A stretch of DNA of 64,000 nt from Candidatus Peribacteria bacterium (GTDB lineage Bacteria; Patescibacteriota; Gracilibacteria; Peribacterales; Peribacteraceae). Below the pieces are notes generated by a model. The model was given only the letters and a program-made list of their open reading frames with translations, was not told where the DNA came from and made no database searches. Positions 11,460-34,022 of this stretch are shown here, piece by piece. The translations under genes were made by a program, and so were the position numbers. Every line of letters begins with the position of its first letter. The stretch's first letter is position 1. The stretch covers positions 210,718 to 274,717 of the forward strand of contig JBEPVF010000002.1 of assembly GCA_041691135.1 (NCBI GenBank). The letters are read 5' to 3'.

Positions 11460-11987
11460 TTATAATCCTTGTTTTTCCGCTGGCAGTTTAATGGTTCGTG
11501 GATCAGTAATTCCGGCATTCCATTCATTCTTAGAAGAAGCAAGTTCCATACCTGCGGCCCCCTGTAATTTTCCTGATTTCCAATGCAACAACGGTATATC
11601 GTGATCCATTTGATCAGACCCAAGTGAAGCAATAGTTTTAGGAGGGGGATCGATATTGAATATCAAAATTCCAGTACCCCCCTTGCTAGTTATTATTGGT
11701 GTATTTAGAGCTTTTGCCTGGCACCAACTTTTTGGAGAAGTATACCTTTTGACTCCAGCAATTTTATCAGTCTCACCATCTGTAAATGGCAAGTCTGAGC
11801 AATTTAAGTCTGCTTCATCTATTGTAAAACCTTCAACGACATCCCACGACTGTGATTTATAAACTATGACATGGACCAACAAGTTACTCATAATGGGCAA
11901 TTTTTTTACTGGTTCTGCAAAGCTTTCTGTTTGTGCACAAGAAGTCAGTAATACTAAGAGGCCAGTAATAAAAATTATTTTTTTCAT
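11460..11987 (-). CDS. Lipoprotein, candidate immunity/partner protein of the upstream large protein
   Basis: MKKIIFITGLLVLLTSC lipobox; start overlaps the upstream stop (TAATG); AT-rich like the upstream C-terminus. Confidence 0.75.
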   Translation of the reverse strand: MKKIIFITGLLVLLTSCAQTESFAEPVKKLPIMSNLLVHVIVYKSQSWDVVEGFTIDEADLNCSDLPFTDGETDKIAGVKRYTSPKSWCQAKALNTPIITSKGGTGILIFNIDPPPKTIASLGSDQMDHDIPLLHWKSGKLQGAAGMELASSKNEWNAGITDPRTIKLPAEKQGL

Positions 11988-14900
11988 TATTTCAGTGCGA
12001 TACGATAAATTGTAAATTTATCAGCTTTTTCATCAAGTCTATCGTATGACATAAAATGATACCGTATTGTATTATCAGCTTGGCGATTATAATCCCCATT
12101 ATATTTTTTTTGCACAGAATCGTAAGCAGACACATATTGACCGTTAGTATCGAGCTTAAACTCACCTGTGCCTGAAGCAACAGGCGTGTAATCATTTACT
12201 AAATCACCGAAATTAGTATCCATAACCCATATGCCGTCTTGCTCTTTTTTTCCAATTACCATTGTGTGTGGAGTTGAACCGTACATCATTTGAACAATAT
12301 CACCTTCTTTTACATCAATTGAGCTAACTTTGTTTTTAAATGAATTAAATTTATTACCTTGATCTATAGCTATAACATTAGGACTGCCATCGACATCCCA
12401 TCTATAGCGCAGATCTACAAGTTCTCCGTTTCGAATTTCCTTACCATCATCGTGGTTAGAGGGAAGTAAAATACCTGTGGAGTTTATTATAAGAACTTTC
12501 CTCAGCCAATCTTTACACTCCAGTTGACCTGTGTCATGCGGAGACCCTCTTAACTCAAATCCTTTGACACCTAAACTTGTATTTTCAACGTACGATAATT
12601 CTCCGTTCGCATAATCTTTAATGAATTGGTCAATAATCTTCTTATTCCCCTCCGGGATCTGCCCATAATCAATATCAAATATAGAAGCAATTTTCTCGTT
12701 CATTCTAGTCTTCTCCTCAAGAGAAAAACTGTTCCACTTGTCTCCAAATAATTTGGGAATGTCCACCTCCGAATGAGAAACCTCCTTCACCGTAAACTCG
12801 CTCGTCGCCATCTGCGCTGTCGATCCGTCTTCGAAGCGAACAACCACGTTCAACCATGTCTGACCGTGGATCATGTGATTCGTGAGTACGCTTGCAGGAA
12901 GGGTAATGTAAAGACCATGACGTATGGCTGCCAAAGATTGTGAATCAATATCGGCATCTGATTTACCTGTTACATCAAAGAGTGCTGGCATAACACGTAC
13001 ATTCTGCACTCTCTTGTCACCGATTACATAGTCCAAACGAATGCGGATCTGATCGTCACTCGTAAATTCTGCACCGTTGATTGATGCTGCGATCATATGT
13101 GGTGCAGCATTCGCCTCGTTGCTCGGGTTGAAGATTTGTTCGTAGCCGGCAATACTAAAGAGCGCTTTGAGCATTCTCTGTTTCGCCTGAGTATCTTTCT
13201 GAAGCGCCACAACCATGATCTTCTGCCAGGGAATAGCAGTGACCTGCTCCACTGTTTTTGCGTAGTCGACCATCTCAACTAGAGTCGATGTGACTAACTT
13301 CTGACTCAAGCCAGCATAGACTTTTGCAACCTGACTGTTGGCTGACGCATCCTGAGAAGACCAATTCAGAGCGGCACCCATTGCTTGCTCCATCGTCGGG
13401 TTCGCTTGCGCATACTGAGCGATGGCATTGACAATAGGTTCGGCAGCCATTGCATCTTTGAACTGCTGAGTGCCAAGAGTGATATCAAGACTGCGAATCA
13501 AATCTTGAGTTTCGCTATCAGGCATGAACATTCCCATCGATTCAAAACTGCCAAGCATGGCAGTCACCGAAGGATCATCCTGTAGAACGGCTTTGAGCTG
13601 TTTCTCCGTGTCACCGCCATAGGTGGAAACTTCATTCGTAAAATCTGTTTCCCAGCTATCCGGTAACTTCACGACAATCGTCCCATCATTCTCGACATGT
13701 GTTTTGTCGCCCAATACAATTGTCATACGCCGGTTGCCTCCGTTAATTGTATTGAGAGCCGCACTGAGCGCATCCACCATCCGAGCCTGCGCACGATCGA
13801 CGTTCATTTGCGATTGCTCACTGGCAGTTGTCGGACTATTAGGCACATTGGCACCGTAGGTATAGATGCTCGGTAGTCGCGACACATCCATTGCACGATT
13901 AATCATCGCCGTATAATCGGCTTCCTTCTGCTGCAAAAAAGGATCAGAGGAAATTCTATTCTGACGCTCATAGAGAGCTGTTTGATCGGTCTGCAAATGA
14001 ATCAACGAATCGATCTGCTCAGTCATATACCGATGACCCAGCGCAATAAGCGTATCGACATTGTCCGGAAAAGGCATGCCCGCTCCCCGACTGGCCTCTC
14101 GCATCTGGTAGACATGCTCATTCGAACGTGTGTAGCCACGCTGAACGACTGCATATACATCGTTGAATTCAGTTGCATTGCCCTTGAGCTGCAAAAACGC
14201 CAGTCGCACGCCGTCAGCGAGCAATCCTCCGACCGTCTCTTCCTGCGCATCTTTCAGTTGGGACAGATGTTCGCGTGTCATTTCAGCCTCTGCCTTCAGC
14301 TGATCAACAACGATACGGACTTCGATACCGAAGTTCCCTTTGGCTTTCAACTGGGCGGCATCGGACCGCTCATTCACTCTGTCTTCCGCCACTTTCTGAA
14401 AATTGACACAAAAAAGTTCCGGGCACAAACGCTGGCACAAGTCATCGACGCTCTCGGTAACCGTATATTCTTTGAAGTACTCATAGATCATGTGGCGTCC
14501 GATATTTGCGATGCCCGGATCATTGATGTCGATCGTACGCAGTGCGGCCATCTTGTCGTCGAAGAGCTGTTTCTGGAGAGCGGCAGAAACCTGGCTCGCA
14601 GTTGAAATTGTTTCCTGTTTAAGATGTTCAACGATCAAATCGGCAATTAGCGCGGCAGCAGTTTCTTTTTGCTGATCCACATACGCATCCAATGTCGGCG
14701 TGGCGGGAGACAATGGCCGTGGCGCCGACGGGCCATCGGTGGGAATAGCCGACCAAAGGCGCAAAGGTGTTTGGACCTTGAATAACTTGCCGGTCTGATC
14801 GCCACCGACTACTCCGATAAGGTAGTGATTTTTGGGTGAAGCATGCTGGATCTGCGTGTACTGCGGCACCTGAAGCGTCTCGGGCAGCTGGGTCATAGGC

Positions 14901-15745
14901 CCCTTGCCAAGAGATTTTCCATCGAAGAGGGTTACGAGGCCGTCTCTGTTCGTGACATAGACAACCTCTCCATCGGGAGAACAGGTGATGTTGTTGATCC
15001 ATGGTCCAGACATCGGTTGAACGATGCAATTACCGGACTGTACGTCGATAATGCTGACACCGCCGTTCTGATCTCCGCAAAGAATATACTTGCCGGAGGG
15101 ATCAACGGTAAAGGCAAGAACATGTCCGGGCACGGAGAAATTCTTTGTCTGAGCAGTCGTACTGTCGTAGACGGAAACAGTTCTATCCAAATACGAAGCC
15201 AACTTTTTACCATCCGGAAAGAAACACACGCCATCACCAGCAGGACCAGTGGCAGTTTGCTCACCTGTGTCGGTATTAAGCTGAAGAACCTGAGAACTCG
15301 ACAGGGCAAAGGCGACTGTTCTACCGTCAGAAGACATCTCCATGCGTGTACCCCAATCGGGAAGCGTGAAGCATTGGAGCTGAGCGCCGCTCGAGGCATC
15401 CCACACACGACAGGTGTGATCTTGTCCGAACGAAATTATTTTTGTTCCGGTTGGATCGTAAGTGCATCGCCACACTTGTCCGTTGTGTCCGGCAAGTTCC
15501 TTTAATGGCGCGCCGTTTCTTGCATCGCGAATGACAATGGTGCTTTGCCCATACGTCGTTGTTGCAAGATGCTCACCATCGGGGCTGAGGGAAAGATCCA
15601 CAAAAGATTCTGGGCCGCGATCCACCTCTGTGGAATCCTGGGAAGTTAGATGCGGTATCGCAGCCAAGGCGGCATCGAACGACGCATAGGCAGGAACCTG
15701 CCGGTCTTCCAGGGATTCAAAGGAGGGATGGAACGAACGCGGCAT
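11987..15745 (-). CDS. 1252 aa protein: LEPRxLL-like N-terminal motif, WD40 propeller, helical middle and C-terminal CHAP/NlpC-P60-like domain
   Basis: MPRSFHPSFESLEDRQVPA; WD40 repeats (LSPDGEHLAT, GHNGQVW..YDPTG, DHTCRVWD); C-terminal GQLECKDW...KEGDIVQM...PHTMVI...IWVMDTNF...FTIYRI. Confidence 0.8.
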   Translation of the reverse strand: MPRSFHPSFESLEDRQVPAYASFDAALAAIPHLTSQDSTEVDRGPESFVDLSLSPDGEHLATTTYGQSTIVIRDARNGAPLKELAGHNGQVWRCTYDPTGTKIISFGQDHTCRVWDASSGAQLQCFTLPDWGTRMEMSSDGRTVAFALSSSQVLQLNTDTGEQTATGPAGDGVCFFPDGKKLASYLDRTVSVYDSTTAQTKNFSVPGHVLAFTVDPSGKYILCGDQNGGVSIIDVQSGNCIVQPMSGPWINNITCSPDGEVVYVTNRDGLVTLFDGKSLGKGPMTQLPETLQVPQYTQIQHASPKNHYLIGVVGGDQTGKLFKVQTPLRLWSAIPTDGPSAPRPLSPATPTLDAYVDQQKETAAALIADLIVEHLKQETISTASQVSAALQKQLFDDKMAALRTIDINDPGIANIGRHMIYEYFKEYTVTESVDDLCQRLCPELFCVNFQKVAEDRVNERSDAAQLKAKGNFGIEVRIVVDQLKAEAEMTREHLSQLKDAQEETVGGLLADGVRLAFLQLKGNATEFNDVYAVVQRGYTRSNEHVYQMREASRGAGMPFPDNVDTLIALGHRYMTEQIDSLIHLQTDQTALYERQNRISSDPFLQQKEADYTAMINRAMDVSRLPSIYTYGANVPNSPTTASEQSQMNVDRAQARMVDALSAALNTINGGNRRMTIVLGDKTHVENDGTIVVKLPDSWETDFTNEVSTYGGDTEKQLKAVLQDDPSVTAMLGSFESMGMFMPDSETQDLIRSLDITLGTQQFKDAMAAEPIVNAIAQYAQANPTMEQAMGAALNWSSQDASANSQVAKVYAGLSQKLVTSTLVEMVDYAKTVEQVTAIPWQKIMVVALQKDTQAKQRMLKALFSIAGYEQIFNPSNEANAAPHMIAASINGAEFTSDDQIRIRLDYVIGDKRVQNVRVMPALFDVTGKSDADIDSQSLAAIRHGLYITLPASVLTNHMIHGQTWLNVVVRFEDGSTAQMATSEFTVKEVSHSEVDIPKLFGDKWNSFSLEEKTRMNEKIASIFDIDYGQIPEGNKKIIDQFIKDYANGELSYVENTSLGVKGFELRGSPHDTGQLECKDWLRKVLIINSTGILLPSNHDDGKEIRNGELVDLRYRWDVDGSPNVIAIDQGNKFNSFKNKVSSIDVKEGDIVQMMYGSTPHTMVIGKKEQDGIWVMDTNFGDLVNDYTPVASGTGEFKLDTNGQYVSAYDSVQKKYNGDYNRQADNTIRYHFMSYDRLDEKADKFTIYRIALK

Positions 15746-15944
15746 AGATGGATGGGGGAAAAGGATGTCTCCATCAAATCAGAGCGCCGCATCAGTGAAG
15801 AGAGCATCACGAAGAGCAAAATCGTGCGACACTCGTTTTTTCCCTGCCACTCAATCTCAATGACGTTCTATGCACACACAGAACGTTCATCAAACATATA
15901 ATCATGAACAAAACTATCTCTTCGTGCAATAATCTGTTGTCCTC

Positions 15945-16979
15945 CTACTCTGACTCCAACACCAAATCGTAAACCTCCTTGCTGATGCTTCCATCCTCGT
16001 ATAGCTGCTTCGCTGCCTTGGCATACGTAATCATTCCAATATTCTCGCTCGTCTGCAGCACCGTCTTCAGTTCCACAATACGTCCGGTACGAATGATGTT
16101 CGATACGGCCGGCGTGTTCAGCAGGATCTCGCGCAATGCCACGCGTCCGCCACCGGTACGCGGCAGCAAGCGCTGGGCGACGATCGCCGTGAGGGATAGC
16201 GAGAGCTGTGAACGGATCTGTTGCTGTTGATAGGCCGGGAACACGTCGACGATACGGTCGATCGTCTGCATCGTGTTGGGCGTGTGCAATGTAGCGAAGA
16301 TAAGGTGGCCTGTTTCAGCCAGAGTGAGAGCGAGGGCAATTGTTTCCGGATCGCGCATTTCTCCGACCATGACGATGTCCGGATCCTGACGCAGCACACG
16401 CTTCATCGCTTCGGCGAACGAGAGGAAGTCCTGACCGTACTGACGCTGACGGATCAGACCCTGGCCGCGCGGAAAGATGAATTCGATCGGATCTTCCAGT
16501 GTGATGATGTGCGCCGAGCGTTGCTGGTTGATGAAGTGCACGATGGACGCGAGTGACGAGGACTTTCCTGAACCGGTCGGACCGGTAAAGAGCACCAGGC
16601 CCTGGCGGAGGTTCACGAACTGCTGTGCGATCTGATCCAGACCGAGTTGTTCCAATGTGGGGATATCCTGCGGGATGATACGAGCCGCCAAGCCGACGTT
16701 GCCACGTTCGTAGTGACAGTTCACACGCAGACGAACGCCATCGGGTAGTTCGTACGACACGTCGATTTCGCGCATCTCCTTTAAACGCTTGTAGGATGTC
16801 TCGCCGATAACGCCGCGGACGAACTGGTCCACTTGGGCAGCGGTCATCACCTGCTTGCTCTGGGCAATCAGCTGTCCATCGATACGAAAGAGGATGGGTG
16901 AGCCCTCAGCGATGTGCACGTCGGATGCACCTTGCTTGAACGCTTTCTCGAATAGAAGGGTGGCGGGTTGGTTTGACAT
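15945..16979 (-). CDS. pilT: Type IV pilus retraction ATPase, PilT/PilU family
   Basis: ASDVHI, Walker A GPTGSGKSS, ITLEDPIE, LRQDPDIVMVGEMRD, AETGHL, TLHT. Confidence 0.93.
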   Translation of the reverse strand: MSNQPATLLFEKAFKQGASDVHIAEGSPILFRIDGQLIAQSKQVMTAAQVDQFVRGVIGETSYKRLKEMREIDVSYELPDGVRLRVNCHYERGNVGLAARIIPQDIPTLEQLGLDQIAQQFVNLRQGLVLFTGPTGSGKSSSLASIVHFINQQRSAHIITLEDPIEFIFPRGQGLIRQRQYGQDFLSFAEAMKRVLRQDPDIVMVGEMRDPETIALALTLAETGHLIFATLHTPNTMQTIDRIVDVFPAYQQQQIRSQLSLSLTAIVAQRLLPRTGGGRVALREILLNTPAVSNIIRTGRIVELKTVLQTSENIGMITYAKAAKQLYEDGSISKEVYDLVLESE

Positions 16980-17188
16980 ATCGAACTATTATAGCAGATT
17001 TTGGCTTACAGACCAAGAGCATCCCCTGTTTAGCCCAAGAGAGTTCTATAAAGACAGAATGGACTCAAAACCCATGCTTTTGGGAACTAAAATGCATTTT
17101 TACTCACAAATACGCAACTTTAGAGGCGAAAAGAGCATTTCTTGGACGAGATTATTTACAAAAATCGTTTGCGGCATACGATTGAGGC

Positions 17189-17527
17189 ATGGCCATAGCC
17201 TCTAGAGAAGCGGGAACCGATCCGGACATATCCGATGCTGTTTGGCGTGTAGCAAAGCCAGGTAATCTGTTTGAGGAATTCAACGAATTGTCGAAGCCAG
17301 AATTGCGTCGAATCGTAGAAGAAGCGGAGCGAAAATTGGCTGCAAAAATTGAAATGTTTCAGCAGACGAGAGGACTTATTTGCAAATGCCTCGATGCGGT
17401 CAGGAATACCTCCAACTGCAAAAATCCACCGCCACATACCAATGAATACCGGCGGATTGACAGACTGAGAGACATTATAACAATCGGAAAGGCATTTTTG
17501 CCTCGTGAGAATGATCCGAGGAAATAA
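17189..17527 (+). CDS. Hypothetical protein
   Basis: 112 aa helical ORF filling the gap, convergent with the next gene; no motif recognised. Confidence 0.5.
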   Translation: MAIASREAGTDPDISDAVWRVAKPGNLFEEFNELSKPELRRIVEEAERKLAAKIEMFQQTRGLICKCLDAVRNTSNCKNPPPHTNEYRRIDRLRDIITIGKAFLPRENDPRK

Positions 17528-17541
17528 AAAGTCTTGATGAT

Positions 17542-19410: not shown

Positions 19411-19499
19411 TGAAGACGTTCCATCCTAAAAGTCAAAAAGACCCCGCCATGAAAGTGAGAGTTAACCACTGGAAGCGCTGAACACGTTCGTCTTCTCTT

Positions 19500-25536: not shown

Positions 25537-25743
25537 CAATTCGACGCATGAAATTCGAAAAATTGATTGCGTTCTTTCGTTGTAAATTATGTATTGTCTA
25601 TTATTCATTCCATTAAGGTTTTCTTAAGAAACGCCAGTTTACGGCAGCCGACAGCCACATATTGAGCTAACAGTCTCTTAAGAGTGCACTCGTATAGTGA
25701 GCACAGTCGCGACTGACTCTTTTACTTCTTTCATCCTCATACT

Positions 25744-26157
25744 ATGAAAAACAAGTTCACACTCGGTGCCATCGCCGGCATCTCCTCTATCGCACTTGCC
25801 ATTCCATTCCTCGCTCAAGTCTCCAATGCCGCTTCCAGCGGATCGACGCAATCGACACCGACGCAGCAGGAACAGACAACGACGACAATGGCCGCTTCCA
25901 TTTCCCAATCCGCCGCCGAACAAACGGCACTTCAGGCGCATCCTGGAAAACTCTCGGAAGCCACTCGACTCGATGATCACTTTGGCGGATATAAAGTGGA
26001 GATCACCGGTAACGACGGCAATGAATATGACGTGATCGTCGACGCAACGAGCGGACAGATCACCGACAGCTGGATCGACGGCCAAGGCGGCCCGCACGGT
26101 CGCGGACCGATGAACGGACATGATCAACCGGACGCAGCCGGCTCTTCGAGCATCTAA
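25744..26157 (+). CDS. Secreted PepSY-domain protein
   Basis: Signal peptide; ISQSAAEQTAL..HPG...YKVEI..DG..YDVIVDATSGQI. Confidence 0.88.
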   Translation: MKNKFTLGAIAGISSIALAIPFLAQVSNAASSGSTQSTPTQQEQTTTTMAASISQSAAEQTALQAHPGKLSEATRLDDHFGGYKVEITGNDGNEYDVIVDATSGQITDSWIDGQGGPHGRGPMNGHDQPDAAGSSSI

Positions 26158-26202
26158 AAGCTTCCGCACATCACCGGCTCTTCCGTAAGGGGGAAAGGGG
26201 GG

Positions 26203-26224
26203 AGGCCGCACAAGCGGCCTTTTT
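26203..26224 (+). terminator. Intrinsic terminator
   Basis: AGGCCGC-acaa-GCGGCCT followed by TTTT, downstream of the PepSY gene. Confidence 0.75.
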
Positions 26225-26360
26225 CCTCTGGGAGAAGCGCCTACCCGTTATATAAATGGTTCAAAGTAGTAATTTTGACCGACATTATTAGTCTTACAGG
26301 CTTATAGAGTTCTTCATCTATATATTGACTTTAATAATTTATTATGTTTATATATAATAT

Positions 26361-27524
26361 ATGGATTCGCTTTACTACTCAGCTGGTGACCAGGAAATGC
26401 TGCAACTGTACGAACAGATCACACATATAGCTCATAATGGAGACATACCTACTATCACGCAGAGGGAAACTCATACGTCAGACGATACGACATTAACTAT
26501 CAGAGCAAACACTCGATGGGAAGCATTGCACCTTTTTAACCAAGCAGTTGCCCTATTGGAAATACAGGCACCTCACGAAGGGCTGGACCCGTCAGTTGTT
26601 ACGAGAATCAAAGAACTTCGACAGACGATCACGGATACATGGGAAGCACACCAACCGGTTTCCTCTAAACCTGCTATGGCGACGGCAACCCACTTCCTTA
26701 ACCGAGTGAGAGATGGAGTCTTTGCCATTCGTGGCAACGACACAATGGAAGTACTAGAACGATGCGGCGCGGTTATATTTTCTGAATTCATGCGCGGGCA
26801 GATGGAGCCGGTTACTTATCTCAGAGCTCGTATGTATTTAGACGAGAGAGTCGAGTTGCTTCAGGTGAAAAAGAAAAGTGAAACGTTAAACCAGGAACTG
26901 ATACATGATGAAGTGGCGACACATGCATGGAGCAGGAGAATCATCAGTGAGGTAGTCGAAGATACGCTGGAGGCAAGCGTCGAAGGACATGGCGTGCTGG
27001 TCCATTTTGACGTTGTCGGATTCGGAAAGTTCAACAATCAAGTGCACTACGAGTATGCAGACAATGCTCTGCGGGCAATCGGAAATACTCTAGCAGATGA
27101 GGGAATCATCACGGCGAGAACCGGCGGCGATGAATTCGTCTGCTTCTTTCCGGATGAAGATGATATGGAAACATGCATCCAAAGAATCATCCAGTTGTGC
27201 CAACCTGCGCTTGCAGAAATAGATGGGCCATTCGCGGAGCAAAATCTGCCCCGTTTCGCCACATTGCATGTAGGGCTCGGCGCAGTTGTGATGCATAAGG
27301 GTGAGAAATACGGTGAGACCACGATAAAGGCAGTCAAACGGATGCAGGTCGCGAAACAAGCGCCTCAAGCAAAAGGTCTGCGCTATCCGCACTTCACCGG
27401 TAAGCAACCAACAAGAATTCTGGGCATGACCCCAGAAGGCACCCCCGCCTCGGCCCCCATCGAACGCCGAACAATGCGTACTATTCTGGAGAGAGTAAAA
27501 AAATTCCTTAAAGAGATTAATTAA
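26361..27524 (+). CDS. GGDEF-domain protein (diguanylate cyclase-like) with an unknown N-terminus
   Basis: VHFDVVGFGKFNN...ADNAL...ARTGGDEF...VGLG. Confidence 0.8.
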   Translation: MDSLYYSAGDQEMLQLYEQITHIAHNGDIPTITQRETHTSDDTTLTIRANTRWEALHLFNQAVALLEIQAPHEGLDPSVVTRIKELRQTITDTWEAHQPVSSKPAMATATHFLNRVRDGVFAIRGNDTMEVLERCGAVIFSEFMRGQMEPVTYLRARMYLDERVELLQVKKKSETLNQELIHDEVATHAWSRRIISEVVEDTLEASVEGHGVLVHFDVVGFGKFNNQVHYEYADNALRAIGNTLADEGIITARTGGDEFVCFFPDEDDMETCIQRIIQLCQPALAEIDGPFAEQNLPRFATLHVGLGAVVMHKGEKYGETTIKAVKRMQVAKQAPQAKGLRYPHFTGKQPTRILGMTPEGTPASAPIERRTMRTILERVKKFLKEIN

Positions 27525-27551
27525 TCGCAGTACACTATTTTCGAATAGCCA

Positions 27552-29552
27552 TTATCGGACAGGCAACGATATCGAGAACACCGTCCCCTTCCCCTCCTCC
27601 GACTGCATCGTCACCGTGCCTTTGAGCACGTTGGTTAAGAGCGATACCAGATAGAGACCTAAACCCGTGCCGCTTGTTTCGCGGTCGATCACGTTGTGGC
27701 CGCGGAAGAATTTCTGGAAGACGTTCTGTTGCTGGTCCAGAGGAATGCCGTAGCCCGTATCTTTCACATCGATACGAATGGCATCTTTTTCCTGCCAGGC
27801 CCGCAGGAAAATTTTTCCAGTTTCCGGGGTATAGGTAATGGCATTCTGGAGCAAATTACCGAGGATCTCGGATAAGAAACGCGGATCGGTGTTGATGGAG
27901 AGCGGCGAAGAACAGTCGATGGTAAACGTCTGTCGCTTGGCCTCGTACTGCGGTTGGAACTGCTGGCCTTTGGTGCGAAGCATCTCGCATACATCCACTT
28001 CGGCAATCGCCAAGTCGATTGCCTGCGCTTCGGCGCGCGAGATCTTCAGCATCGTATCGATCGTCTGAGACATACGCGCGGCGGCCTGCAAACTCTCGCG
28101 CAGAAACTTCTCTTCAGTCGGACTTACTTTGCCGGCCAGATCTTTGGTAAGCCTGCCGAGGCTCCAACGCATGGTCGTGAGCGGCGTGCGCAGTTGATGT
28201 GACGCCAGTGACATGAATTCCGATTTCGATCGGTCTATGCGACGCTCTCTGGTGACGTCGCGGTACAGAAACAACTGACCGCGATGTTTTCCATCTTCAT
28301 ACGTCGGAATAAAATCTCGCAGAATGATGCGTCCGTCTTTCAGCAAAATCTCCTGATCGAAGAGGGGTTCCTTCTTCGCTATAGTCGCGCGGACTTTTAC
28401 CATGTGCTCGTCCGGATGCAACAATCCCTGCAAAAAACGCTCGAGTAATTCTGCAGACGACATGTTTCTTATTTGTTCCGGAGAACGTTTGATGTGGAAC
28501 ATGCGACAGTACGCTTCGTTGAGCTCAAGAATATTCGCCTCTTCATCCATCAGTAGTGCGGCCGATGGCAAATGAGAAACGATTGAGCGTAACCGCTCCA
28601 GGTTGACCCGATCTTTTTGCAATGCGATTTCAAGCTCCTTGGTACGTTCATGTACCTTCTCTTCCAACGATTCGACGGCGTATCTTCGTTCCTGCAGAGC
28701 GGCGGCCAGAATCATGCCGATGGATGATGCAATGGCAATGTAGAATTGCAGCAAGTTGAGTGACGTATTCGGCGATGAGCTCACGAACGGACCGAAACCG
28801 GATAGGGTTCCCAAAATCGCAAGGCATGCCAAAAGAAAAATAGTCGTGACTGTTTCGCGCAGCCCGAAACGGATAGCCGCCCATACGATCGGAAGCAGCG
28901 AAATATACAGCGGATAATGAGCGTATCCGTACTGTGTATTGCCGCTGAAAACGATAAAACTGATGAGCACCATAAATTCCACAAGCAACACTGCTTCCAA
29001 AGACTGCCGTACCGACCAGCGGAATTTGAAATTATGAACCCACAGCAGAAGCAACGGGGCGATCACGAGCGCACCGACCGTATCGCCGAGCCACCAAGTG
29101 AACCATAAATCAGGAGCGCGTGACCATAATGCAGAACCGGCGAGCAATAAAGACAACGAGCCGACAGAAGCACTGATGGCCGAGGAGGCGGCGGCGAAGA
29201 AAATAAAAAGAAGAACCGTGTGCACCTGCCCGAATGCCTTCGCACCGCCGGCGAAACGCTTGATAAGAAATGCTCCGACGAGCCCTTCGAGGGTGTTACC
29301 GATTGCAATGGTTATTGACGTACCGAACGAGCCGGCCGTTAGTATATTCACCAAGAATGCACCGATCAGAACCGATGGCCAGAATCGAAAACCGAGGAGC
29401 AGGAACACGGCGATGGCGATACCCGTCGGCGGCCACACCGGTGATGCGCTGGGAAACCTGAACGCCAACATCAGGCCGAATTTTCCGGCAGCAAAATAGA
29501 TCACTGTGATCAGGACGATGGACGCCCAGAACCGAAGCCGGGATGGATTCAT
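27552..29552 (-). CDS. MASE1-PAS sensor histidine kinase
   Basis: MASE1 (SPVWPPTGIA, TWWLGD, WAAIRFG), PAS, SHQLRTPL, NLLQNAITYT, DTGYGIP, GTGLGL. Confidence 0.93.
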   Translation of the reverse strand: MNPSRLRFWASIVLITVIYFAAGKFGLMLAFRFPSASPVWPPTGIAIAVFLLLGFRFWPSVLIGAFLVNILTAGSFGTSITIAIGNTLEGLVGAFLIKRFAGGAKAFGQVHTVLLFIFFAAASSAISASVGSLSLLLAGSALWSRAPDLWFTWWLGDTVGALVIAPLLLLWVHNFKFRWSVRQSLEAVLLVEFMVLISFIVFSGNTQYGYAHYPLYISLLPIVWAAIRFGLRETVTTIFLLACLAILGTLSGFGPFVSSSPNTSLNLLQFYIAIASSIGMILAAALQERRYAVESLEEKVHERTKELEIALQKDRVNLERLRSIVSHLPSAALLMDEEANILELNEAYCRMFHIKRSPEQIRNMSSAELLERFLQGLLHPDEHMVKVRATIAKKEPLFDQEILLKDGRIILRDFIPTYEDGKHRGQLFLYRDVTRERRIDRSKSEFMSLASHQLRTPLTTMRWSLGRLTKDLAGKVSPTEEKFLRESLQAAARMSQTIDTMLKISRAEAQAIDLAIAEVDVCEMLRTKGQQFQPQYEAKRQTFTIDCSSPLSINTDPRFLSEILGNLLQNAITYTPETGKIFLRAWQEKDAIRIDVKDTGYGIPLDQQQNVFQKFFRGHNVIDRETSGTGLGLYLVSLLTNVLKGTVTMQSEEGKGTVFSISLPVR

Positions 29553-29783
29553 AGCGGATAGCGTGCGGATTTTTTCAGTATATCAGAGGCAAGTTGACTC
29601 TCAATCCGGTATTCATGGGAATGACTGTTCCAGGTAAGGATGGAACTGGTATTCCGTTATGCAGAAGCCAAAAAATTCCCTCTTCGTTCACGAGAACATT
29701 TCCGGCTCTTTTTAGTTTCTTGTGCCTGCAGCCAGGAATGCTATCGTAAAGTCTTCATTTTAGTTTTTTGCCCACCCCTTACC

Positions 29784-32700
29784 ATGGTCAAGATCAATTC
29801 TTCCCAAGGCCTGACAGCGGCTGAAAGTTTGAACATAGACTACGGCATAGGTGAACGCATCGATAGCGGCCGCACCACTGTGCATAGTCGAACCGAAAGA
29901 GCGTTCAGACCAGAGGTGGTGAGAACGCTGGAGGAAAGAATGCTCATGACATTACAGAGCGTTAATATGAACTTCCTGGCATTCGGCATAGGTCCGCACA
30001 AATATGGCGATGCAATCAACATCGACGGAGTCGATGTCGCCGTAACGCTGCAAGGAGCAAACGGATTTATCGTCAACAAAGATGGTAGTATTCAAGCGCA
30101 AGACGGGGGTGGAATTGTTGTCTCATTCAAGCAAGATCAATTAGTCACCAAAGTAGTTGCTAAGCAGACCGGCAATGGGACGGGGCTGATCAATTTTAGT
30201 GAGCCTACCGGCAATGATTATCGACCGTTACCATCGACTGGCGGGACGATCGTCGCAAATGAAGTGTGCAATTCGGTGCAGATTGTGCAAACGAGCGGTA
30301 CTGCCAAGTATGTTTTGACTGGACTCTACACTCAGAAAGACGTGCCAGACGTGCCTAGCGACGCACCCGTTTCCGTACCGACCACGGGTCCGGTATTGCC
30401 GATGCCGAAGATGGAATCTGTCACGCACACTGAATCACTCAACTTTTCATTTCCGGGCAGAGCCAAAGATCACACTGTTTTTCACCTCGGAGACGGTGTG
30501 AATGCTGAAATAGCGTCCGCCGATGGATGGGGACTCGTGATAAAAGAAGGCGCACTTGTAACCGTTAGTGACGGACATACACATGACAGACCCGATTCAG
30601 ATCCGGGCGCGGGAGACATCATGCAAATGACGTTCAGTCCGTTTTTGGAGGGAATGTCTCGCATTAAAATTCAGAGCTTTAAGGAGTTCGGCCCTGCACA
30701 AGGACTTGTGTACTTCGAAACATTGAAAGGTCCTCAATATCTCCCAATACCTGAAAACGGTATCATTGAGTGGGACGGCTCCACGATCATCAGTATGGCC
30801 ATTCTCCCTAAGAGGGCACAAGGTTACGGTCTGACCGGATTTGATCGAGTGGTCACCGAACAGCAACCATCCATCTTGGTGCATCCGCCGAAAGTCAATC
30901 CACTGGACAGCAAAGATCTCGCCAATGGAAACGATTTCCTCAAAGCCCGTCTTTGGCAGTACCAACAGCTCGCCACAACGCTCGACTTTCAGCTGGAGGC
31001 AGGCTCGGATCCCGACGGCATCGCCGCCATGGATGCCTTAGCGACGCAATTGACGATGCTCACGTCTATTTCCGCCGACGTGCAAAAGCAATTCGCCAAT
31101 TTATCGGCGGCCGCGGTCAAAAAAACAAAAGGTCTCCAGCCACTGATAACTGACGCGCAGCTCGTCGATACCGCACTCTCGGCACTCAATAAAGACTGGC
31201 AGCAGCGCATGCGCATAGTCAAATATCGCACCGGTAATATCATCACCGATGACGGAAGAATACTGGATCAGAAAAACCTTAATCTTTCCGCCGGTCCGGG
31301 CACGCTCAAAACGAACGGGAACAGTGCGGTGCTTGTGCGTAGCATACCGGGCTTAGATGGCGCGTTGACGATGCAGACTCTGCGTGGAAAGGTCGATGGG
31401 CAACCGACGATCTTCAATCATGACACAACACTCTCCGCGAGTGGCGGACAAATCACCACGTTGGATTTCACGACGCTGAAAGGCTTGGTAACGAATGCGT
31501 CATTTATCGTTCAGTCCGTGAACGGCGAAACAGTGACGGTCAAATTCATGAAGGGAGAACAAGTCCTGAGCACGCAGAAAGTAGTGAGCGGGCAGCAAGT
31601 CAGCTTTTCACAAGCGGATGGAATGAGCGGCGTCATTATCCTGCATGCCCCAACGGGAAAATCCGCCAGCGGTTTGACGCTGAGCAACATCTCCTTTCAG
31701 ATTCTACCCAACTACACCCCGCGAGACGTGGTTGCCGACATGTCCATCAAGAACAATGGCACGGTCGCCAAAGATTCTCAGCCGGACTGGCGCGCTCCCG
31801 CCAATGCCCAGGAGACAGCACGACTCACCAATTCCAACATCTACTTTGGACAAGCAGGCGGTGACCCGCATTGGGACTTAATGTGCTACACGAGCAATAA
31901 TGACGGTCGGTATAATCGTTACGATGTGATCTCGAGCCAAGGCGACACGCACATAGATGGCCTGTTCTACCTGACATCGGAAGGTACGCAACAGCTCTCA
32001 ACTATGTATTACTACATACTTCCCAGTGGAAAAGGTGTCGTCGTGAGCCCGGGCGCACCGAAAGATTTGATTTTGGACATAAAATCATCAGGCTATTACC
32101 ACATCGTAAACACGGGCGGAACCATGCAAAAAGAATCCGTGACACCGCCGACCGAGTTCACTCTGGAATCGAATTATATCGGCACGTATACACAGCCAAC
32201 CGATAAACCCGGCTTCACCACGAATAAGATCACAACAGACACGATGAAGCCGCAACGCGTGCTAATTGGAAGCGGACTGTTCGTCATGGATTTCATCGAC
32301 CGCGGCCAGAAAGCCGGTGCCATTACAGCGGAAGTATGGACTGGGTATGGCAGCACCAATCGGAAAGCAGAGCTTCTGGCTACCTACAAAGGAAATCTGA
32401 GTCCCAATACGGTCACACATTTGCAGACTAACGTAAGAGGATCATCGGCTCCAAGCCAACGCGATGAACCGATTCTGATTACCGTGGTCATCACTCTTCC
32501 CGATGGAACAATCCAAGAAAACACTGTCTATCTCAATCGCAGACCGAATGAAGCGATGGTCAACGTGCGAGACGCGGATGGCACTCTCCATTCAGTGCCA
32601 AGGCCGCTTGGCAGTGACGAACAAGCTCGTTTGGATCATCTCATTCCCAAAATTCTGTACGCCGCACAAACCGGACAATCAGGCTACACCGCGCCATCAA

Positions 32701-34022
32701 ATCTGGCCGATTTGTATAAGCAGTTGTACAACGTGACAGCCGATCCGCAAACCGTAGGCGCAGTATCCGGCGCACCGGCCACCGTTGTTCCAGGCAAGCC
32801 CGTGCAGCCGGCAGCCGGAGTGGCGTACAAGGCGATGGAAAATATTGGCGATAAAATGGATACGGCGATCGATGTGACACAGGTCTCTTTGGCGAACCTT
32901 AGGCGTAACGTAAACAATGCTGAAATAGGCGCCTTTCATTACAAGATTGTCACTGGCGATACGCTAACTGCAATAGCAGCAAAATTTAAAATTCCAGATT
33001 GGCACACAATCTATAACGATTCTTGGAATGCTGACTTCCGTAAACTTCGACCAGATCCAAATAAGATACAGCCAGGTGATGTTATCAACATTCCCATGCG
33101 TATGATTAGTAATGATCTTGAGATCCAAAACAAAATTCTCGGAATGGATACATCATTGCCGCCCAGCGCTGCTTTCTCACAAATCGTAAATGCTCCTTTC
33201 CTCAGTACTACTACCTGTGCCCAAATTGTTGACACTACGTTGACCGAAATAAAAAACACCGACGATGCTCGAGAGTATCTAAAACTTACCCCGGACGCGG
33301 CCATTGCCAAACAAGTTGCTATTAGTCAAAAGACGGTGCTTGAGGTCCTCAAAGGCAAAATGCCCGAGGCAGTCCATAAGATCTTTGAAAAGATTTTCAG
33401 TGACCCCATCGTAAATAGTACAAATCTGCTAATCAATAGCATAAAGGATTACAAAAATGGGAAACCCATAGATGAGGTAGTGAAAAGCTTTTCCATAATA
33501 ATAACGACAGTAGCAACCTACGATCTGACAAATATGGAAGTTCTCTCTTCTTTGAAAGATATTGTTAAAGCTGTAATTCTTGATACTGGCTTACGGATCC
33601 TGCATCCGAATCAAATAGAAATTAGCTATTCAGCGGATAAACAATTCGCCATCGATACTCTGGTTAGTAAGACGAACAAACTTATAGATTCAACACAAGA
33701 TCCTCGAGCTGTCATTCTTACTGTAGCACTTGGAGAATTCGTATGGAGAAGCACACATATTGATGGACTAAGCACGGCCTCTTTAGGAGATCAATCTGTT
33801 TTCTTAGATGCTGCTTTGGATGACAAGCTAAAAGACGCTGCTACAAAATACAATTTAGTCGCCATCGAGCAAATATATGAAGCTGAAATAAAATATTACG
33901 ATACCCTAATAGCTCAGAAGATGCTCGACCCTCATAAGAAATCTTCAATGATTTCTCAGTTGAATTTATTTTTTGCCGGCATCCTTCAATTCTACAATCG
34001 AGAACGCATTATGTCTGTGTGA
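29784..34022 (+). CDS. About 1412 aa protein: LEPRxLL-like motif, beta-rich domains, LysM and an unknown helical C-terminus
   Basis: Start placed at MVKIN after a pyrimidine-rich leader; RAFRPEVVRTLEERMLMT; LysM HYKIVTGDTLTAIA...PNKIQPGDVINIP at about 32934-33095; AT-richer C-terminus. Confidence 0.8.
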   Translation: MVKINSSQGLTAAESLNIDYGIGERIDSGRTTVHSRTERAFRPEVVRTLEERMLMTLQSVNMNFLAFGIGPHKYGDAINIDGVDVAVTLQGANGFIVNKDGSIQAQDGGGIVVSFKQDQLVTKVVAKQTGNGTGLINFSEPTGNDYRPLPSTGGTIVANEVCNSVQIVQTSGTAKYVLTGLYTQKDVPDVPSDAPVSVPTTGPVLPMPKMESVTHTESLNFSFPGRAKDHTVFHLGDGVNAEIASADGWGLVIKEGALVTVSDGHTHDRPDSDPGAGDIMQMTFSPFLEGMSRIKIQSFKEFGPAQGLVYFETLKGPQYLPIPENGIIEWDGSTIISMAILPKRAQGYGLTGFDRVVTEQQPSILVHPPKVNPLDSKDLANGNDFLKARLWQYQQLATTLDFQLEAGSDPDGIAAMDALATQLTMLTSISADVQKQFANLSAAAVKKTKGLQPLITDAQLVDTALSALNKDWQQRMRIVKYRTGNIITDDGRILDQKNLNLSAGPGTLKTNGNSAVLVRSIPGLDGALTMQTLRGKVDGQPTIFNHDTTLSASGGQITTLDFTTLKGLVTNASFIVQSVNGETVTVKFMKGEQVLSTQKVVSGQQVSFSQADGMSGVIILHAPTGKSASGLTLSNISFQILPNYTPRDVVADMSIKNNGTVAKDSQPDWRAPANAQETARLTNSNIYFGQAGGDPHWDLMCYTSNNDGRYNRYDVISSQGDTHIDGLFYLTSEGTQQLSTMYYYILPSGKGVVVSPGAPKDLILDIKSSGYYHIVNTGGTMQKESVTPPTEFTLESNYIGTYTQPTDKPGFTTNKITTDTMKPQRVLIGSGLFVMDFIDRGQKAGAITAEVWTGYGSTNRKAELLATYKGNLSPNTVTHLQTNVRGSSAPSQRDEPILITVVITLPDGTIQENTVYLNRRPNEAMVNVRDADGTLHSVPRPLGSDEQARLDHLIPKILYAAQTGQSGYTAPSNLADLYKQLYNVTADPQTVGAVSGAPATVVPGKPVQPAAGVAYKAMENIGDKMDTAIDVTQVSLANLRRNVNNAEIGAFHYKIVTGDTLTAIAAKFKIPDWHTIYNDSWNADFRKLRPDPNKIQPGDVINIPMRMISNDLEIQNKILGMDTSLPPSAAFSQIVNAPFLSTTTCAQIVDTTLTEIKNTDDAREYLKLTPDAAIAKQVAISQKTVLEVLKGKMPEAVHKIFEKIFSDPIVNSTNLLINSIKDYKNGKPIDEVVKSFSIIITTVATYDLTNMEVLSSLKDIVKAVILDTGLRILHPNQIEISYSADKQFAIDTLVSKTNKLIDSTQDPRAVILTVALGEFVWRSTHIDGLSTASLGDQSVFLDAALDDKLKDAATKYNLVAIEQIYEAEIKYYDTLIAQKMLDPHKKSSMISQLNLFFAGILQFYNRERIMSV

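What the first reader, a model, noticed from the sequence alone, without database searches (positions are those of the whole stretch)
11460..34022. Candidate new system: CPR giant proteins with a planctomycete-type N-terminal motif and exchangeable cell-wall-targeting C-termini
Seen: two otherwise dissimilar large proteins lack a hydrophobic signal peptide but share an N-terminal motif, RSFHPSFESLEDRQVPA (15689-15745, minus) and RAFRPEVVRTLEERMLMT (about 29898-29951, plus). Both then have beta-rich domains and a Pro-rich linker (PTDGP/PTTGP). Both switch to visibly AT-richer DNA for a C-terminus linked to peptidoglycan (CHAP-like; LysM). Established: R..FRP...LE.R.LL/VP is the LEPRxLL / 'planctomycete extracellular' motif that marks exported proteins of Planctomycetota. 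Inference: a host-dependent CPR cell uses or mimics this motif on a polymorphic effector family. It may be hijacking a planctomycete host's export/processing machinery, which would also hint at the host.
Basis: partly seen in the sequence, partly recalled or inferred. Interest (0 to 1): 0.85.

Follow-up and report, generated by a model that had tools for sequence, protein, structure and literature searches.

The report
LEPR-led polymorphic cell-wall effectors in CPR
A family of tiny-genome (CPR-like) bacteria puts a short N-terminal 'LE-x-R' tag, best known from planctomycete surface proteins, on large modular proteins whose exchangeable tail ends look like cell-wall-cutting enzymes; this is a modest new twist on polymorphic toxin systems and gives no clue to a planctomycete host.

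Summary
Both ORFs exist, and so do the motifs, the Pro-rich linkers and the sharp GC drops at the C-terminal domain boundaries.

The two window proteins fail the curated motif HMMs: P0001 scores 10.9-11.8 bits against a cut-off of 25.5, and P0002 does not hit. The motif is nevertheless real in this lineage:
- The genome has four such N-termini.
- Relatives in the same family carry canonical '..E.LE[DP]R.LLSA.P' leaders on 900-1800 aa ORFs.
- NF012209 passes its cut-off in 8 of 101 family genomes and 0 of 14 controls.
- A family profile hits 40 of 101 family genomes, but only 2 of 389 genomes elsewhere in the phylum.

The genome is CPR-like and not planctomycete.

P0001 and a paralog share 336 N-terminal residues and then diverge. 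P0001's tail is a conserved Cys-His-Asp domain whose homologs hit Amidase_6 and CHAP. It recurs on other LE.R-led proteins and is followed by an overlapping lipoprotein gene.

Best reading: a polymorphic-toxin-like effector family with a LEPR-type leader. The host-hijack idea is unsupported, because papers report the motif in Vibrio and Chlorobium too.

The parts
11987..15745 (-). P0001, 1252 aa. Order of parts: LE.R leader, WD40 propeller, Pro-rich linker, unassigned middle, conserved pre-tail module, Cys-His-Asp amidase-like tail.
15689..15745 (-). N-terminal leader MPRSFHPSFESLEDRQVPA (aa 1-19), of the 'LE.R..P' variant.
   Evidence: PF07595 11.8 and 10.9 bits, below the 25.5 cut-off; paralog and same-genus homolog keep it; 28.4 bits to profile A2, which includes this row
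14897..15613 (-). WD40 beta-propeller, about aa 45-283.
   Evidence: PF00400 62.3 bits, several propeller families
14690..14749 (-). Pro-rich linker (IPTDGPSAPRPLSPATPT). Similarity to the paralog P0004 ends here, at aa 335/336.
12752..13339 (-). Pre-tail module, aa 803-998. It is conserved next to the tail in unrelated long proteins.
   Evidence: contiguous alignments of aa 803/809-1249 with P0006 and P0005
11990..12751 (-). AT-rich C-terminal tail, aa 999-1252. Papain-like Cys1077 / His1160 / Asp1176 (Asn1178) domain of the Amidase_6/CHAP type.
11460..11987 (-). P0003, 175-aa lipoprotein (lipobox LLTSC). Its start overlaps the P0001 stop (TAATG). GC 0.38. Candidate immunity protein.
   Evidence: (LPAM_1 23.3 bits, cut-off 20); apart from a 143-aa record identical to part of it, no relative was found
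29640..34022 (+). P0002, 1460 aa (1412 aa if it starts at M49, nt 29784). Order of parts: weak LE.R leader, unassigned N-domain, middle domain shared with LEPR-led proteins, LysM, orphan AT-rich tail.
29898..29951 (+). Leader-like motif ERAFRPEVVRTLEERMLMT (aa 87-104).
   Evidence: resembles the same-genus leader in L003; no curated HMM hit; only 3.8 bits to the leave-out profile
31446..32579 (+). Middle domain, about aa 603-980. It is shared at 24-28% identity with P0004 and with LEPR-led proteins of G008, G099 and G001.
32940..33095 (+). LysM-like segment, aa 1101-1152. It starts at the GC break (aa 1099).
33096..34019 (+). Orphan AT-rich C-terminal region, aa 1153-1460, of unknown function.
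15945..16979 (-). PilT-like T2SSE ATPase directly upstream of P0001 on the same strand. The same arrangement is seen in G002 and nearby in G008. Its membership in the system is uncertain.
9007..11310 (-). TrmB-type wHTH plus duplicated sensor-domain protein. A conserved neighbour of LEPR genes, but nearly universal in the family. Context, not shown to be a part.

Best explanation
P0001 and, less surely, P0002 belong to a lineage-specific family of large exported effector or surface proteins. The lineage is a Peribacteria-like CPR family with small genomes and a single membrane.

Architecture (shown):
- A short N-terminal LEPR-XLL-type leader: often an Arg-rich stretch, then '..E.LE[DPE]R.[LM][LM]SA.P' or the 'LE.R..P' variant.
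- No hydrophobic signal peptide in P0001.
- A shuffled modular body (WD40 propeller, coiled coil or beta-rich modules).
- A C-terminal tip that changes between paralogs and genomes, and that sits on AT-rich DNA together with the small gene just downstream.
- P0001's tip is a conserved Cys-His-Asp papain-like domain of the Amidase_6/CHAP kind. The paralog P0004 carries a weak M23 peptidase match plus a DUF4258-like end. P0002 carries LysM plus an orphan domain.

Mechanism (inferred):
- The leader is the export or sorting tag for a route other than a classical Sec signal peptide.
- The body presents the protein at the cell surface.
- The tip cuts or binds peptidoglycan of a neighbouring cell, either host or competitor.
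- The overlapping downstream lipoprotein P0003 protects the producer's own wall.
- Tips and partners are exchanged by recombination, as in polymorphic toxin systems.
For: The leader is real in this lineage:
- Four LE[DE]R N-termini occur in the genome, all on contig C2.
- Homologs in other genera carry canonical leaders on 900-1800 aa ORFs.
- NF012209 passes its 17-bit cut-off in 8 of 101 family genomes and 0 of 14 control genomes.
- Profile A2 hits 40 of 101 family genomes, 23 of them not used to build it. It hits only 2 of 389 genomes elsewhere in the phylum, both in ORFs of 51 and 196 aa.

Modularity and exchange:
- P0001 and P0004 are 66% identical over aa 1-336 and unrelated afterwards. 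P0004 aa 690-904 matches P0002 aa 603-814.
- In G008, a tail plus small ORF is duplicated as an orphan cassette. The tails are 71% identical and the small ORFs 40% identical.
- The P0001-type tail occurs in 9 of 101 family genomes, patchily, and not in the same-genus genome G002. In G060 it is a stand-alone 275-aa ORF.
- HMMER found 47 representative proteins with this tail. Of the 20 that are at least 800 aa long, 12 have [LMF]E.R within the first 130 aa, and 2 more have a Lys variant.

Composition:
- GC breaks fall at the domain boundaries, aa 995 in P0001 and aa 1099 in P0002.
- The same AT-rich tip plus downstream pattern is seen in L049, L051, L052, L054 and L055.

Enzyme:
- In 46 aligned tail domains, Cys is kept in 37 (1 Ser, 8 gaps), His in 43 (1 Gln, 2 gaps), and Asp and Asn in all 46.
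- Amidase_6 hits 10 of 20 aligned members and CHAP hits 4 of 20.

The proteins should act outside the cell:
- LysM, M23 and amidase domains act on peptidoglycan, and P0003 has a lipoprotein signal.
- The genome makes peptidoglycan, since PBP transpeptidases are present.
- It has SecY and a prepilin peptidase, but no TatC and no WXG100 were found.

Not a chimera: P0005 and P0006 align contiguously across P0001's GC switch.
Against: - P0001 and P0002 fail the curated motif models. PF07595 gives 10.9-11.8 bits against 25.5. NF012209 gives no hit for either.
- With a profile that excludes this genome, the E-values are not significant: ORF A 0.43, P0001 2.5, P0004 3.5, P0002 16.
- P0002's N-terminal 520 aa and its tail have no detectable homologs. 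Conservation of its motif therefore cannot be tested. It also has no same-strand small ORF downstream.
- Neither P0003 nor the small ORF after P0004 has a relative beyond a record identical to part of P0003. 'Immunity' rests on position, overlap and composition only.
- P0001's tail itself hits no Pfam family and no solved structure by sequence. The amidase call is transitive, and I did not check those member hits against Pfam's gathering cut-offs.
- Low GC also covers conserved neighbours such as the wHTH protein and histidine kinases. Low GC alone therefore does not prove foreign origin.
- No export machinery was identified. Export, cleavage, activity and target are all untested. No fold could be computed.
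Confidence: 0.55

Rival explanations
1. First reader's reading. The CPR cell mimics a planctomycete-specific export motif, so that a planctomycete host's export or processing machinery handles its effectors. The motif would then hint at the host.
For: - The motif type was first described in Rhodopirellula. PMC8567305 (passages read) calls it a planctomycetes-specific cell-surface signal.
- P0001's 'LE.R..P' variant resembles the Tuwongella logo LxLExLExRxxP quoted there.
- The tails target peptidoglycan, which planctomycetes also have (recalled).
Against: - LEPR-XLL/LEPRxLL N-termini are reported on giant proteins of a Vibrio and of Chlorobium chlorochromatii, so the motif is not host-diagnostic.
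- The leader is spread over 36 of 84 sampled genera of one CPR family and sits in orthologous syntenic loci. This fits vertical inheritance.
- The protein must first leave the CPR cell, and nothing found here connects it to foreign machinery.
- No co-occurrence data were available.
Confidence: 0.03
2. These are self-acting surface proteins: adhesins, S-layer-associated proteins, or autolysins for growth, division or pilus passage. Ordinary domain shuffling produced the variety. The small downstream ORFs are unrelated, so there is no antagonism and no immunity.
For: - Peribacteria are reported to encode many large, strain-variable extracellular proteins thought to act in attachment (PMC4736985, abstract and passages).
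- LysM, M23 and NlpC/P60-type domains are common in housekeeping autolysins (established knowledge).
- P0002 has no immunity-like neighbour.
- The candidate immunity ORFs have no homologs.
Against: - The tips are patchy (9 of 101 genomes for the P0001 type) and compositionally distinct together with an overlapping downstream ORF.
- A tail plus small ORF cassette is duplicated as an orphan in G008.
- One relative's tail hits the NPP1 cytolysin family and is followed by an array of small membrane-protein ORFs.
- These are hallmarks of conflict systems rather than of core autolysins.
Confidence: 0.27
3. The shared motif in the two window proteins is a chance resemblance, and the two proteins are unrelated.
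For: - Both are sub-threshold for the curated HMMs. At the E-values used in those searches (up to 10), the control genomes also give sub-cut-off matches: 7 and 8 of 14.
- P0002 scores only 3.8 bits with the leave-out profile.
- The regex used for the shuffle test was derived from the two proteins themselves.
Against: - P0001's leader is kept in its paralog and in the same-genus homolog.
- Among ORFs of at least 300 aa, the leave-out profile's best three are P0001, P0004 and P0002, each matched within the first ~110 residues of its stop-to-stop frame.
- The three full-length proteins in my loci that share P0002's middle domain (P0004, L049, L055) all carry a leader. A fourth, in G001, is cut at the contig end.
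Confidence: 0.05
4. The AT-rich tails are phage or other mobile-element lysin modules that became fused to chromosomal surface-protein genes. They have no role as effectors.
For: - AT-rich composition.
- CHAP, M23 and LysM are typical endolysin modules (established knowledge).
Against: - No phage gene was recognised in the Pfam scans of 33 window ORFs, which covered most of the ORFs flanking the two proteins. I did not scan against PHROGs.
- The tail always follows the same conserved pre-tail module in long LE.R-led proteins.
Confidence: 0.05

Closest known systems
LEPR-XLL domain (NCBIfam NF012209, shown by the tool as 'LEPR-8K') / Planc_extracel (Pfam PF07595)
   Same: - A short N-terminal motif '..E.LE.R.LLSA', often after an Arg-rich stretch, on the largest extracellular proteins.
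- No hydrophobic h-region.
- Eight family genomes pass the NF012209 cut-off.
- The motif is thought to be a novel export signal (PMC8567305 quoting Studholme 2004).
   Different: - The carrier here is a CPR-like monoderm with a genome of about 1-1.7 Mb, not a diderm planctomycete, Vibrio or Chlorobium.
- The proteins are 0.9-1.8 thousand aa, not about 8000.
- The two window proteins are divergent and sub-threshold.
- The motif here heads a polymorphic family with peptidoglycan-targeting tips.
Polymorphic toxin systems (Rhs/YD, CdiA, LXG and similar; Zhang, Aravind and colleagues 2012 and Jamet and Nassif 2015, both recalled)
   Same: - A conserved N-terminal trafficking part, a modular body and a variable C-terminal tip.
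- A compositional break at the tip.
- A small gene directly downstream.
- Orphan tip-plus-partner cassettes.
   Different: - The leader is of the LEPR type, which I do not recall among the described trafficking domains. This is recall, not checked against that paper.
- No Rhs/YD, TPS, PAAR or LXG part was seen in the Pfam scans.
- Immunity is untested.
- An Rhs/YD-type polymorphic toxin has been noted in a Saccharibacterium (PMC6031116, passage).
NlpC/P60-CHAP-Amidase_6 papain-like peptidoglycan amidases, and T6SS amidase effector / periplasmic immunity pairs (Tae/Tai; recalled) as a working analogy
   Same: - An ordered Cys...His...Asp triad that is nearly invariant.
- Homologs hit Amidase_6 and CHAP.
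- The downstream partner is a lipoprotein that would sit where peptidoglycan is.
   Different: - P0001's tail has no direct family hit and no fold.
- It is fused to a large surface protein and is not a small T6SS cargo.
- No T6SS is expected in a monoderm.

Membership tests
LEPR-XLL / Planc_extracel N-terminal motif | Score at or above the curated cut-off (PF07595 25.5 bits; NF012209 17 bits). | tested here: not met
   P0001 scores 11.8 and 10.9 bits on PF07595, P0002 does not hit, and neither hits NF012209. Relatives do pass: 8 of 101 family genomes are over the NF012209 cut-off.
LEPR-XLL / Planc_extracel N-terminal motif | Motif lies at the N-terminus of a large, presumably extracellular protein without a classical signal peptide. 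| tested here: met
   P0001 aa 1-19, with maximum hydropathy 1.15. P0002 aa 87-104, or 39-56 if it starts at M49.
LEPR-XLL / Planc_extracel N-terminal motif | Motif conserved in homologs. | tested here: met
   Met for P0001: the paralog P0004 and the homolog in L003 (G002) keep it, and 12 of 20 long tail homologs have LE.R. For P0002 no N-terminal homolog was found, so this is inconclusive for that protein.
LEPR-XLL / Planc_extracel N-terminal motif | The motif acts as an export or sorting signal. | not testable with these tools
   To my knowledge this is unproven even in planctomycetes. PMC8567305 says it is 'thought to represent' an export signal.
Polymorphic toxin system | Conserved N-terminal part with divergent C-terminal tips among paralogs or homologs. 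| tested here: met
Polymorphic toxin system | Cognate immunity gene directly downstream of the tip. | tested here: inconclusive
   Overlapping small ORFs follow P0001 (P0003) and P0004. G008 has a duplicated cassette. No relatives of the two small ORFs were found and there is no functional test.
Polymorphic toxin system | The tip is toxic to target cells. | not testable with these tools
   Needs expression assays.
NlpC/P60-CHAP-Amidase_6 (papain-like amidase) | Significant match to a family model. | tested here: inconclusive
   P0001's tail gives 0 families. Of the 20 aligned members, 10 hit Amidase_6 (best E 3.2e-5) and 4 hit CHAP (best E 2.8e-4). These hits were not checked against the gathering cut-offs.
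NlpC/P60-CHAP-Amidase_6 (papain-like amidase) | Conserved catalytic Cys, then His, then a polar third residue. | tested here: met
   Cys1077, His1160 and Asp1176/Asn1178. Conservation in 46 aligned domains is 37, 43, 46 and 46; the rest are gaps except 1 Ser and 1 Gln.
NlpC/P60-CHAP-Amidase_6 (papain-like amidase) | Papain-like fold. | not testable with these tools
LysM | Pfam PF01476 at or above 20.9 bits. | tested here: inconclusive
   20.1 bits in the full protein and 24.7 bits when the 380-aa tail is scanned alone.
CPR / Patescibacteria (Peribacteria-like) genome | Small genome, no outer-membrane biogenesis, no ribosomal protein L30. | tested here: met
   1.74 Mb and 92% complete. LpxC, Omp85 and L30 were not found. 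The 401 sampled genomes of the phylum are about 0.7-2.1 Mb. The name 'Peribacteria' could not be checked. It is only consistent with DUF4215 Cys-rich giants, purB, type IV pilus genes and an SLH protein.

The most novel reading that the evidence does not exclude
The LEPR-type leader marks a dedicated export or sorting route that does not use a classical signal peptide. The route would be shared by Planctomycetota, some Proteobacteria and Chlorobi, and this one CPR family. In the CPR family it would deliver exchangeable cell-wall-attacking tips, with immunity partners, against host or rival cells.

The family's genomes are only about 1.2 Mb, and the leader is detected in about 40% of them. Simple presence/absence profiling there could therefore reveal the machinery, which to my knowledge is still unknown, that handles 'planctomycete-type' surface proteins.
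Probability: 0.2. Interest if true: 0.8.

Novelty: new variant of a known kind. Interest (0 to 1): 0.58.

Why it matters
Three reasons, if the reading is right.

1. A motif usually treated as planctomycete-specific is a stable trait of one CPR family. It is detected in about 40% of that family's sampled genomes and almost nowhere else in the sampled phylum. This widens the motif's range to a monoderm with a minimal genome. It also offers a small search space for finding whatever machinery recognises the motif.

2. It gives a concrete, testable candidate for how an obligately cell-associated CPR bacterium attacks or opens a neighbour's wall. The candidate is a surface protein with swappable amidase, M23, LysM or cytolysin-like tips and possible immunity lipoproteins.

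3. It removes a tempting but unfounded host inference. The motif says nothing about a planctomycete host.

Tried and rejected
Sequence searches that found nothing useful:
- The search for related loci in genome contigs with P0001 returned only an unrelated WD40 protein of a Hyphomicrobium MAG (25% identity).
- PDB sequence searches with both tails and with profile A1 found nothing significant.
- Homolog searches for P0002's tail, for P0002's N-terminal 520 aa and for P0003 found only self-records: P0002's own 1412-aa record (P0051) for the two P0002 queries, and for P0003 a 143-aa protein identical to part of it.
- tblastn of P0003 and of the ORF after P0004 against all fetched loci found only themselves.

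Candidate partners rejected:
- The wHTH-sensor neighbour (window 9007-11310) was tested as a dedicated partner. It occurs in 88 of 101 family genomes, so it is not specific to motif carriers.
- The PilT-like ATPase is adjacent to the LEPR gene only in G000 and G002, and near it in G008. I treat this as synteny.

Other checks:
- Rfam found nothing in the window.
- No RNA holder was listed for window 11000-16000.
- Read laying on run X1 laid a long contig only on 16363-17000. It gave no cover for 9000-16235, and only pieces of 30-34 bases between 16236 and 16362. It therefore says nothing about coverage or the junction.
- Literature searches for the motif names and consensus strings returned 5 papers and then 1 paper, none about CPR. 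A search on polymorphic toxins in CPR listed 15 of 900 papers. I read passages of two, neither about LEPR leaders. Supplements were closed. Supplementary tables of PMC8567305 and PMC4736985 might list motif proteins that I could not see.
- timed out. A lighter version ran.

Full report
**What is there.**
The flagged span holds two large ORFs. P0001 is at 11987-15745 on the minus strand (1252 aa). P0002 is at 29640-34022 on the plus strand (1460 aa). P0001 begins MPRSFHPSFESLEDRQVPA. P0002 has ERAFRPEVVRTLEERMLMT at residues 87-104, which is residues 39-56 if it starts at M49 as the public 1412-aa gene call does.

P0001 continues with a WD40 propeller (PF00400, 62.3 bits) and a Pro-rich linker at aa 335. 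P0002 has a similar linker at aa 247, but its N-terminal domain matches no family.

Both genes drop sharply in GC near their 3' ends. P0001 falls from 0.484 to 0.360 at aa 995. P0002 falls from 0.520 to 0.393 at aa 1099. The genome averages 0.529 (sd 0.043), and only 1.9% of its 1-kb windows are below 0.42.

A 175-aa lipoprotein gene, P0003 (LPAM_1, 23.3 bits), starts inside P0001's stop codon (TAATG) and is equally AT-rich.

**Is the motif real?**
The curated models do not accept the two window proteins. PF07595 gives P0001 11.8 bits on the peptide and 10.9 bits genome-wide, against a cut-off of 25.5. It gives P0002 nothing. NF012209 hits neither. At the permissive E-values used in those searches, 7 and 8 of the 14 control genomes also gave sub-cut-off matches.

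The genome nevertheless holds two more N-termini of the same kind, both on the same contig. One is a 1681-aa paralog, P0004 (C2:50722-55767), starting MPRFSTGPRVEYLEDRQLPS. The other is a frame-shifted gene, 'ORF A' (C2:23138-26132), with GFKPQSLEGLEDRLVLSAV.

Homologs found in relatives carry textbook leaders:
- G002, same genus: MPRTRAFRPSVEDAPLEPRQLLTT.
- Other genera: for example RRRQSRRSLQMEQLEDRTLMSAAP and SFEQLEERTLMDAAP, at the heads of 900-1800 aa ORFs.

NF012209 passes its own cut-off in 8 of 101 sampled genomes of the family and in 0 of 14 controls. In a 401-genome sample of the whole phylum it passes in 5, and three of those five are in ORFs of 20-187 aa.

I built a 24-position profile, A2, from 20 leaders of 17 genomes. 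It hits 40 of 101 family genomes at E <= 0.01. Of these, 23 were not in the model and 15 of those 23 hit in ORFs of at least 500 aa. Outside the family it hits 2 of 389 phylum genomes, in ORFs of 51 and 196 aa.

The honest limit is this. A profile built without this genome's rows ranks ORF A first, P0001 4th, P0004 5th and P0002 19th-20th among 13,920 six-frame ORFs, with non-significant E-values of 0.43 to 16. P0001's membership rests on its paralog and homologs. P0002's rests on three weaker points:
- its resemblance to the same-genus leader (RAFRP...LE.R);
- its position near the N-terminus;
- the three full-length proteins in my loci that share its middle domain all have a leader.

**What organism?**
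The assembly is 1.74 Mb in 35 contigs and 92% complete. LpxC, Omp85/BamA, ribosomal protein L30 and TatC were not found. SecY, PBP transpeptidases and a prepilin peptidase were found. All listed genomes of its phylum are about 0.7-2.1 Mb.

This fits CPR/Patescibacteria and excludes a planctomycete contig. 'Peribacteria' could not be verified by name, because the tool withheld the window's own record. It is consistent with several features described for Peribacteria in PMC4736985 (abstract and passages): a DUF4215 cysteine-rich 1275-aa protein, an SLH protein, purB and type IV pilus genes in the window. The one run that holds the locus is labelled freshwater sediment metagenome.

**Architecture and exchange.**
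P0001 and P0004 are 66% identical over residues 1-336, up to the Pro-rich linker, and unrelated afterwards. P0004 aa 690-904 matches P0002 aa 603-814 at 26%. P0004 also turns AT-rich at its end, GC 0.39 after aa 1400. It carries a weak M23 match (22.9 bits, cut-off 28.7) and a DUF4258-like terminus (14.1 bits). It is followed by a 129-aa ORF that overlaps its stop codon.

P0001's last 254 residues found 47 representative proteins in 1.84 billion, 21 of them at E <= 1e-10. In most of them the match lies at the C-terminus of a 990-1945 aa protein. Of the 20 that are at least 800 aa long, 12 have [LMF]E.R in the first 130 residues. Two more have a Lys in place of Arg. One starts with a transmembrane segment, one is a fragment, and four show no motif. 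Several also have WD40 repeats or long coiled coils.

The tail occurs in 9 of 101 family genomes, scattered over genera and missing from the same-genus genome G002. In G060 it is a separate 275-aa ORF downstream of another LEPR gene.

In G008, the last 474 residues of a LEPR protein and the following 137-aa ORF are repeated just downstream as an orphan pair. The repeated tails are 71% identical and the small ORFs 40% identical.

One relative's tail (G099) hits the NPP1 cytolysin family at 29.6 bits (cut-off 21) and is followed by several small membrane-protein ORFs. The other eight tails I scanned hit nothing.

The AT-rich tip plus downstream pattern recurs in L049, L051, L052, L054 and L055.

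The GC switch in P0001 is not an assembly artefact. P0005 and P0006 align without a break from aa 803/809 to aa 1249 (E 2e-41 and 5e-40).

**What the P0001 tail is.**
It has no direct Pfam or PDB-sequence match. In 46 aligned domains, the Cys of 'QCK.W' is present in 37 (1 Ser, 8 gaps from fragments). The His of 'HTM' is present in 43 (1 Gln, 2 gaps). The Asp and Asn of 'D[ST]N' are present in all 46. In P0001 these residues are Cys1077, His1160, Asp1176 and Asn1178.

Ten of the 20 aligned members hit Pfam Amidase_6 (best E 3.2e-5) and four hit CHAP (best E 2.8e-4). One member also has LysM.

**How it most likely works.**
Shown:
- a family-restricted leader;
- no classical signal peptide on P0001, whereas other giants of this genome have one;
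- a modular body;
- exchangeable, compositionally distinct tips with small overlapping downstream genes;
- wall-related domains.

Inferred:
- The proteins must act outside the membrane, because LysM, M23 and amidase domains and a lipoprotein partner make no sense inside.
- The only conserved N-terminal feature, the LE.R leader, is therefore the export or sorting tag.
- No Tat and no WXG100 (type VII) marker was found. The route would then be Sec with an atypical signal, the type IV pilus apparatus, or something unknown.
- The tip attacks or binds the peptidoglycan of a neighbouring cell, and P0003 shields the producer's own wall.

I put 0.55 on this whole chain. My own estimates for the separate steps, which come from no call, are:

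| Step | Estimate |
|---|---|
| Leader is a real family trait | about 0.9 |
| Polymorphic architecture | about 0.8 |
| Amidase-type tip | about 0.7 |
| Leader is an export tag | about 0.5 |
| P0003 is an immunity protein | about 0.4 |

**Rivals.**
- A self-acting adhesin or autolysin family without antagonism is the main alternative (0.27).
The motif is also reported on giant proteins of a Vibrio and of Chlorobium chlorochromatii (passages). The leader sits in orthologous, syntenic loci across genera: ORF A's locus matches G067's gene for gene, and P0001's matches G002's. It is spread over 36 of 84 sampled genera.
- Chance resemblance and a phage-lysin origin get about 0.05 each.

**Comparison with what is known, and novelty.**
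The leader works like, and in relatives qualifies as, the LEPR-XLL / Planc_extracel motif. The gene organisation works like a polymorphic toxin system. The tip resembles NlpC/P60-CHAP-Amidase_6 amidases.

I found no paper that places this motif in CPR (searches, which returned 5 papers and 1 paper). A Saccharibacterium with an Rhs/YD-type polymorphic toxin has been noted (PMC6031116, passage). I therefore rate this a new variant of a known kind, of moderate interest.

The most useful consequence is practical. One CPR family with genomes of about 1.2 Mb, in which roughly 40% of sampled genomes show the leader, is a small search space for finding what recognises it.

Noticed in passing
window 4001-13000: A 9-kb AT-rich block (GC 0.32-0.43, flanks about 0.55). 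It holds a histidine kinase, two ORFs of 112 and 281 aa with no Pfam match, an Orn/DAP/Arg decarboxylase, an EamA transporter, a TrmB-wHTH protein with a duplicated sensor domain, P0003 and the P0001 tail. The wHTH protein is in 88 of 101 family genomes. In at least 12 genomes it lies within about 13 kb of a LEPR-led gene or a P0001-type tail (coordinates). This may be a conserved variable hot-spot or a regulatory link.
   Followed up: partly
L046:4202-7133 (G000:C2:23138-26132): A fourth LEPR-led gene. It has the most canonical leader in this genome and a DUF11 body, and it is split by a frameshift between a 108-aa and an 893-aa ORF. It is either a pseudogene or an assembly indel. Its locus is syntenic with that of G067 (L050).
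   Followed up: partly
L049:6800-13787 (G008:C33): A LEPR protein followed by a 137-aa ORF. An orphan copy of the last 474 residues (71% identical) follows, with a second small ORF (40% identical). This looks like a tip-plus-partner cassette array.
   Followed up: partly
L055:5271-7951 (G099:C13): A LEPR protein whose C-terminus hits the NPP1 (necrosis-inducing protein) family at 29.6 bits. Four small ORFs follow, two of them paralogous and most with hydrophobic N-termini.
   Followed up: no
L045:4337-5700 (G000:C2): The paralog P0004 ends in a DUF4258-like segment (14.1 bits, covering positions 1-69 of the 71-position profile) after a weak M23 peptidase match. A 129-aa ORF overlaps its stop codon.
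   Followed up: partly
window 53176-63126: Two further large surface proteins with classical hydrophobic N-termini. One is 1275 aa with the DUF4215 cysteine-rich repeat. The other is 1983 aa with HYDIN/ASH/DUF1573 Ig-like repeats. They show that this genome uses ordinary signal peptides for its other giants.
   Followed up: partly
window 2369-3892: A 507-aa protein with an SLH domain and three Calx-beta domains. This suggests an S-layer-type, Gram-positive-like envelope.
   Followed up: no
window 26361-29552: A GGDEF protein and a MASE1-PAS histidine kinase lie directly upstream of P0002. This is unusual signalling capacity for so small a genome.
   Followed up: no
L047:7562-8515 and L052:10860-11927: A conserved membrane protein of about 320-355 aa, with no Pfam hit, directly follows one sequence class of LEPR genes in two genera. 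It could be a partner or an immunity protein.
   Followed up: no
L058:6974-9742 (G323, another family of the phylum): A 922-aa ORF starting MGTSRRVRGLAMESLERRIYLSADP. It passes NF012209 at 18.6 bits but does not reach E 0.01 with the family profile A2. It may be a rare occurrence of the leader outside the family.
   Followed up: no
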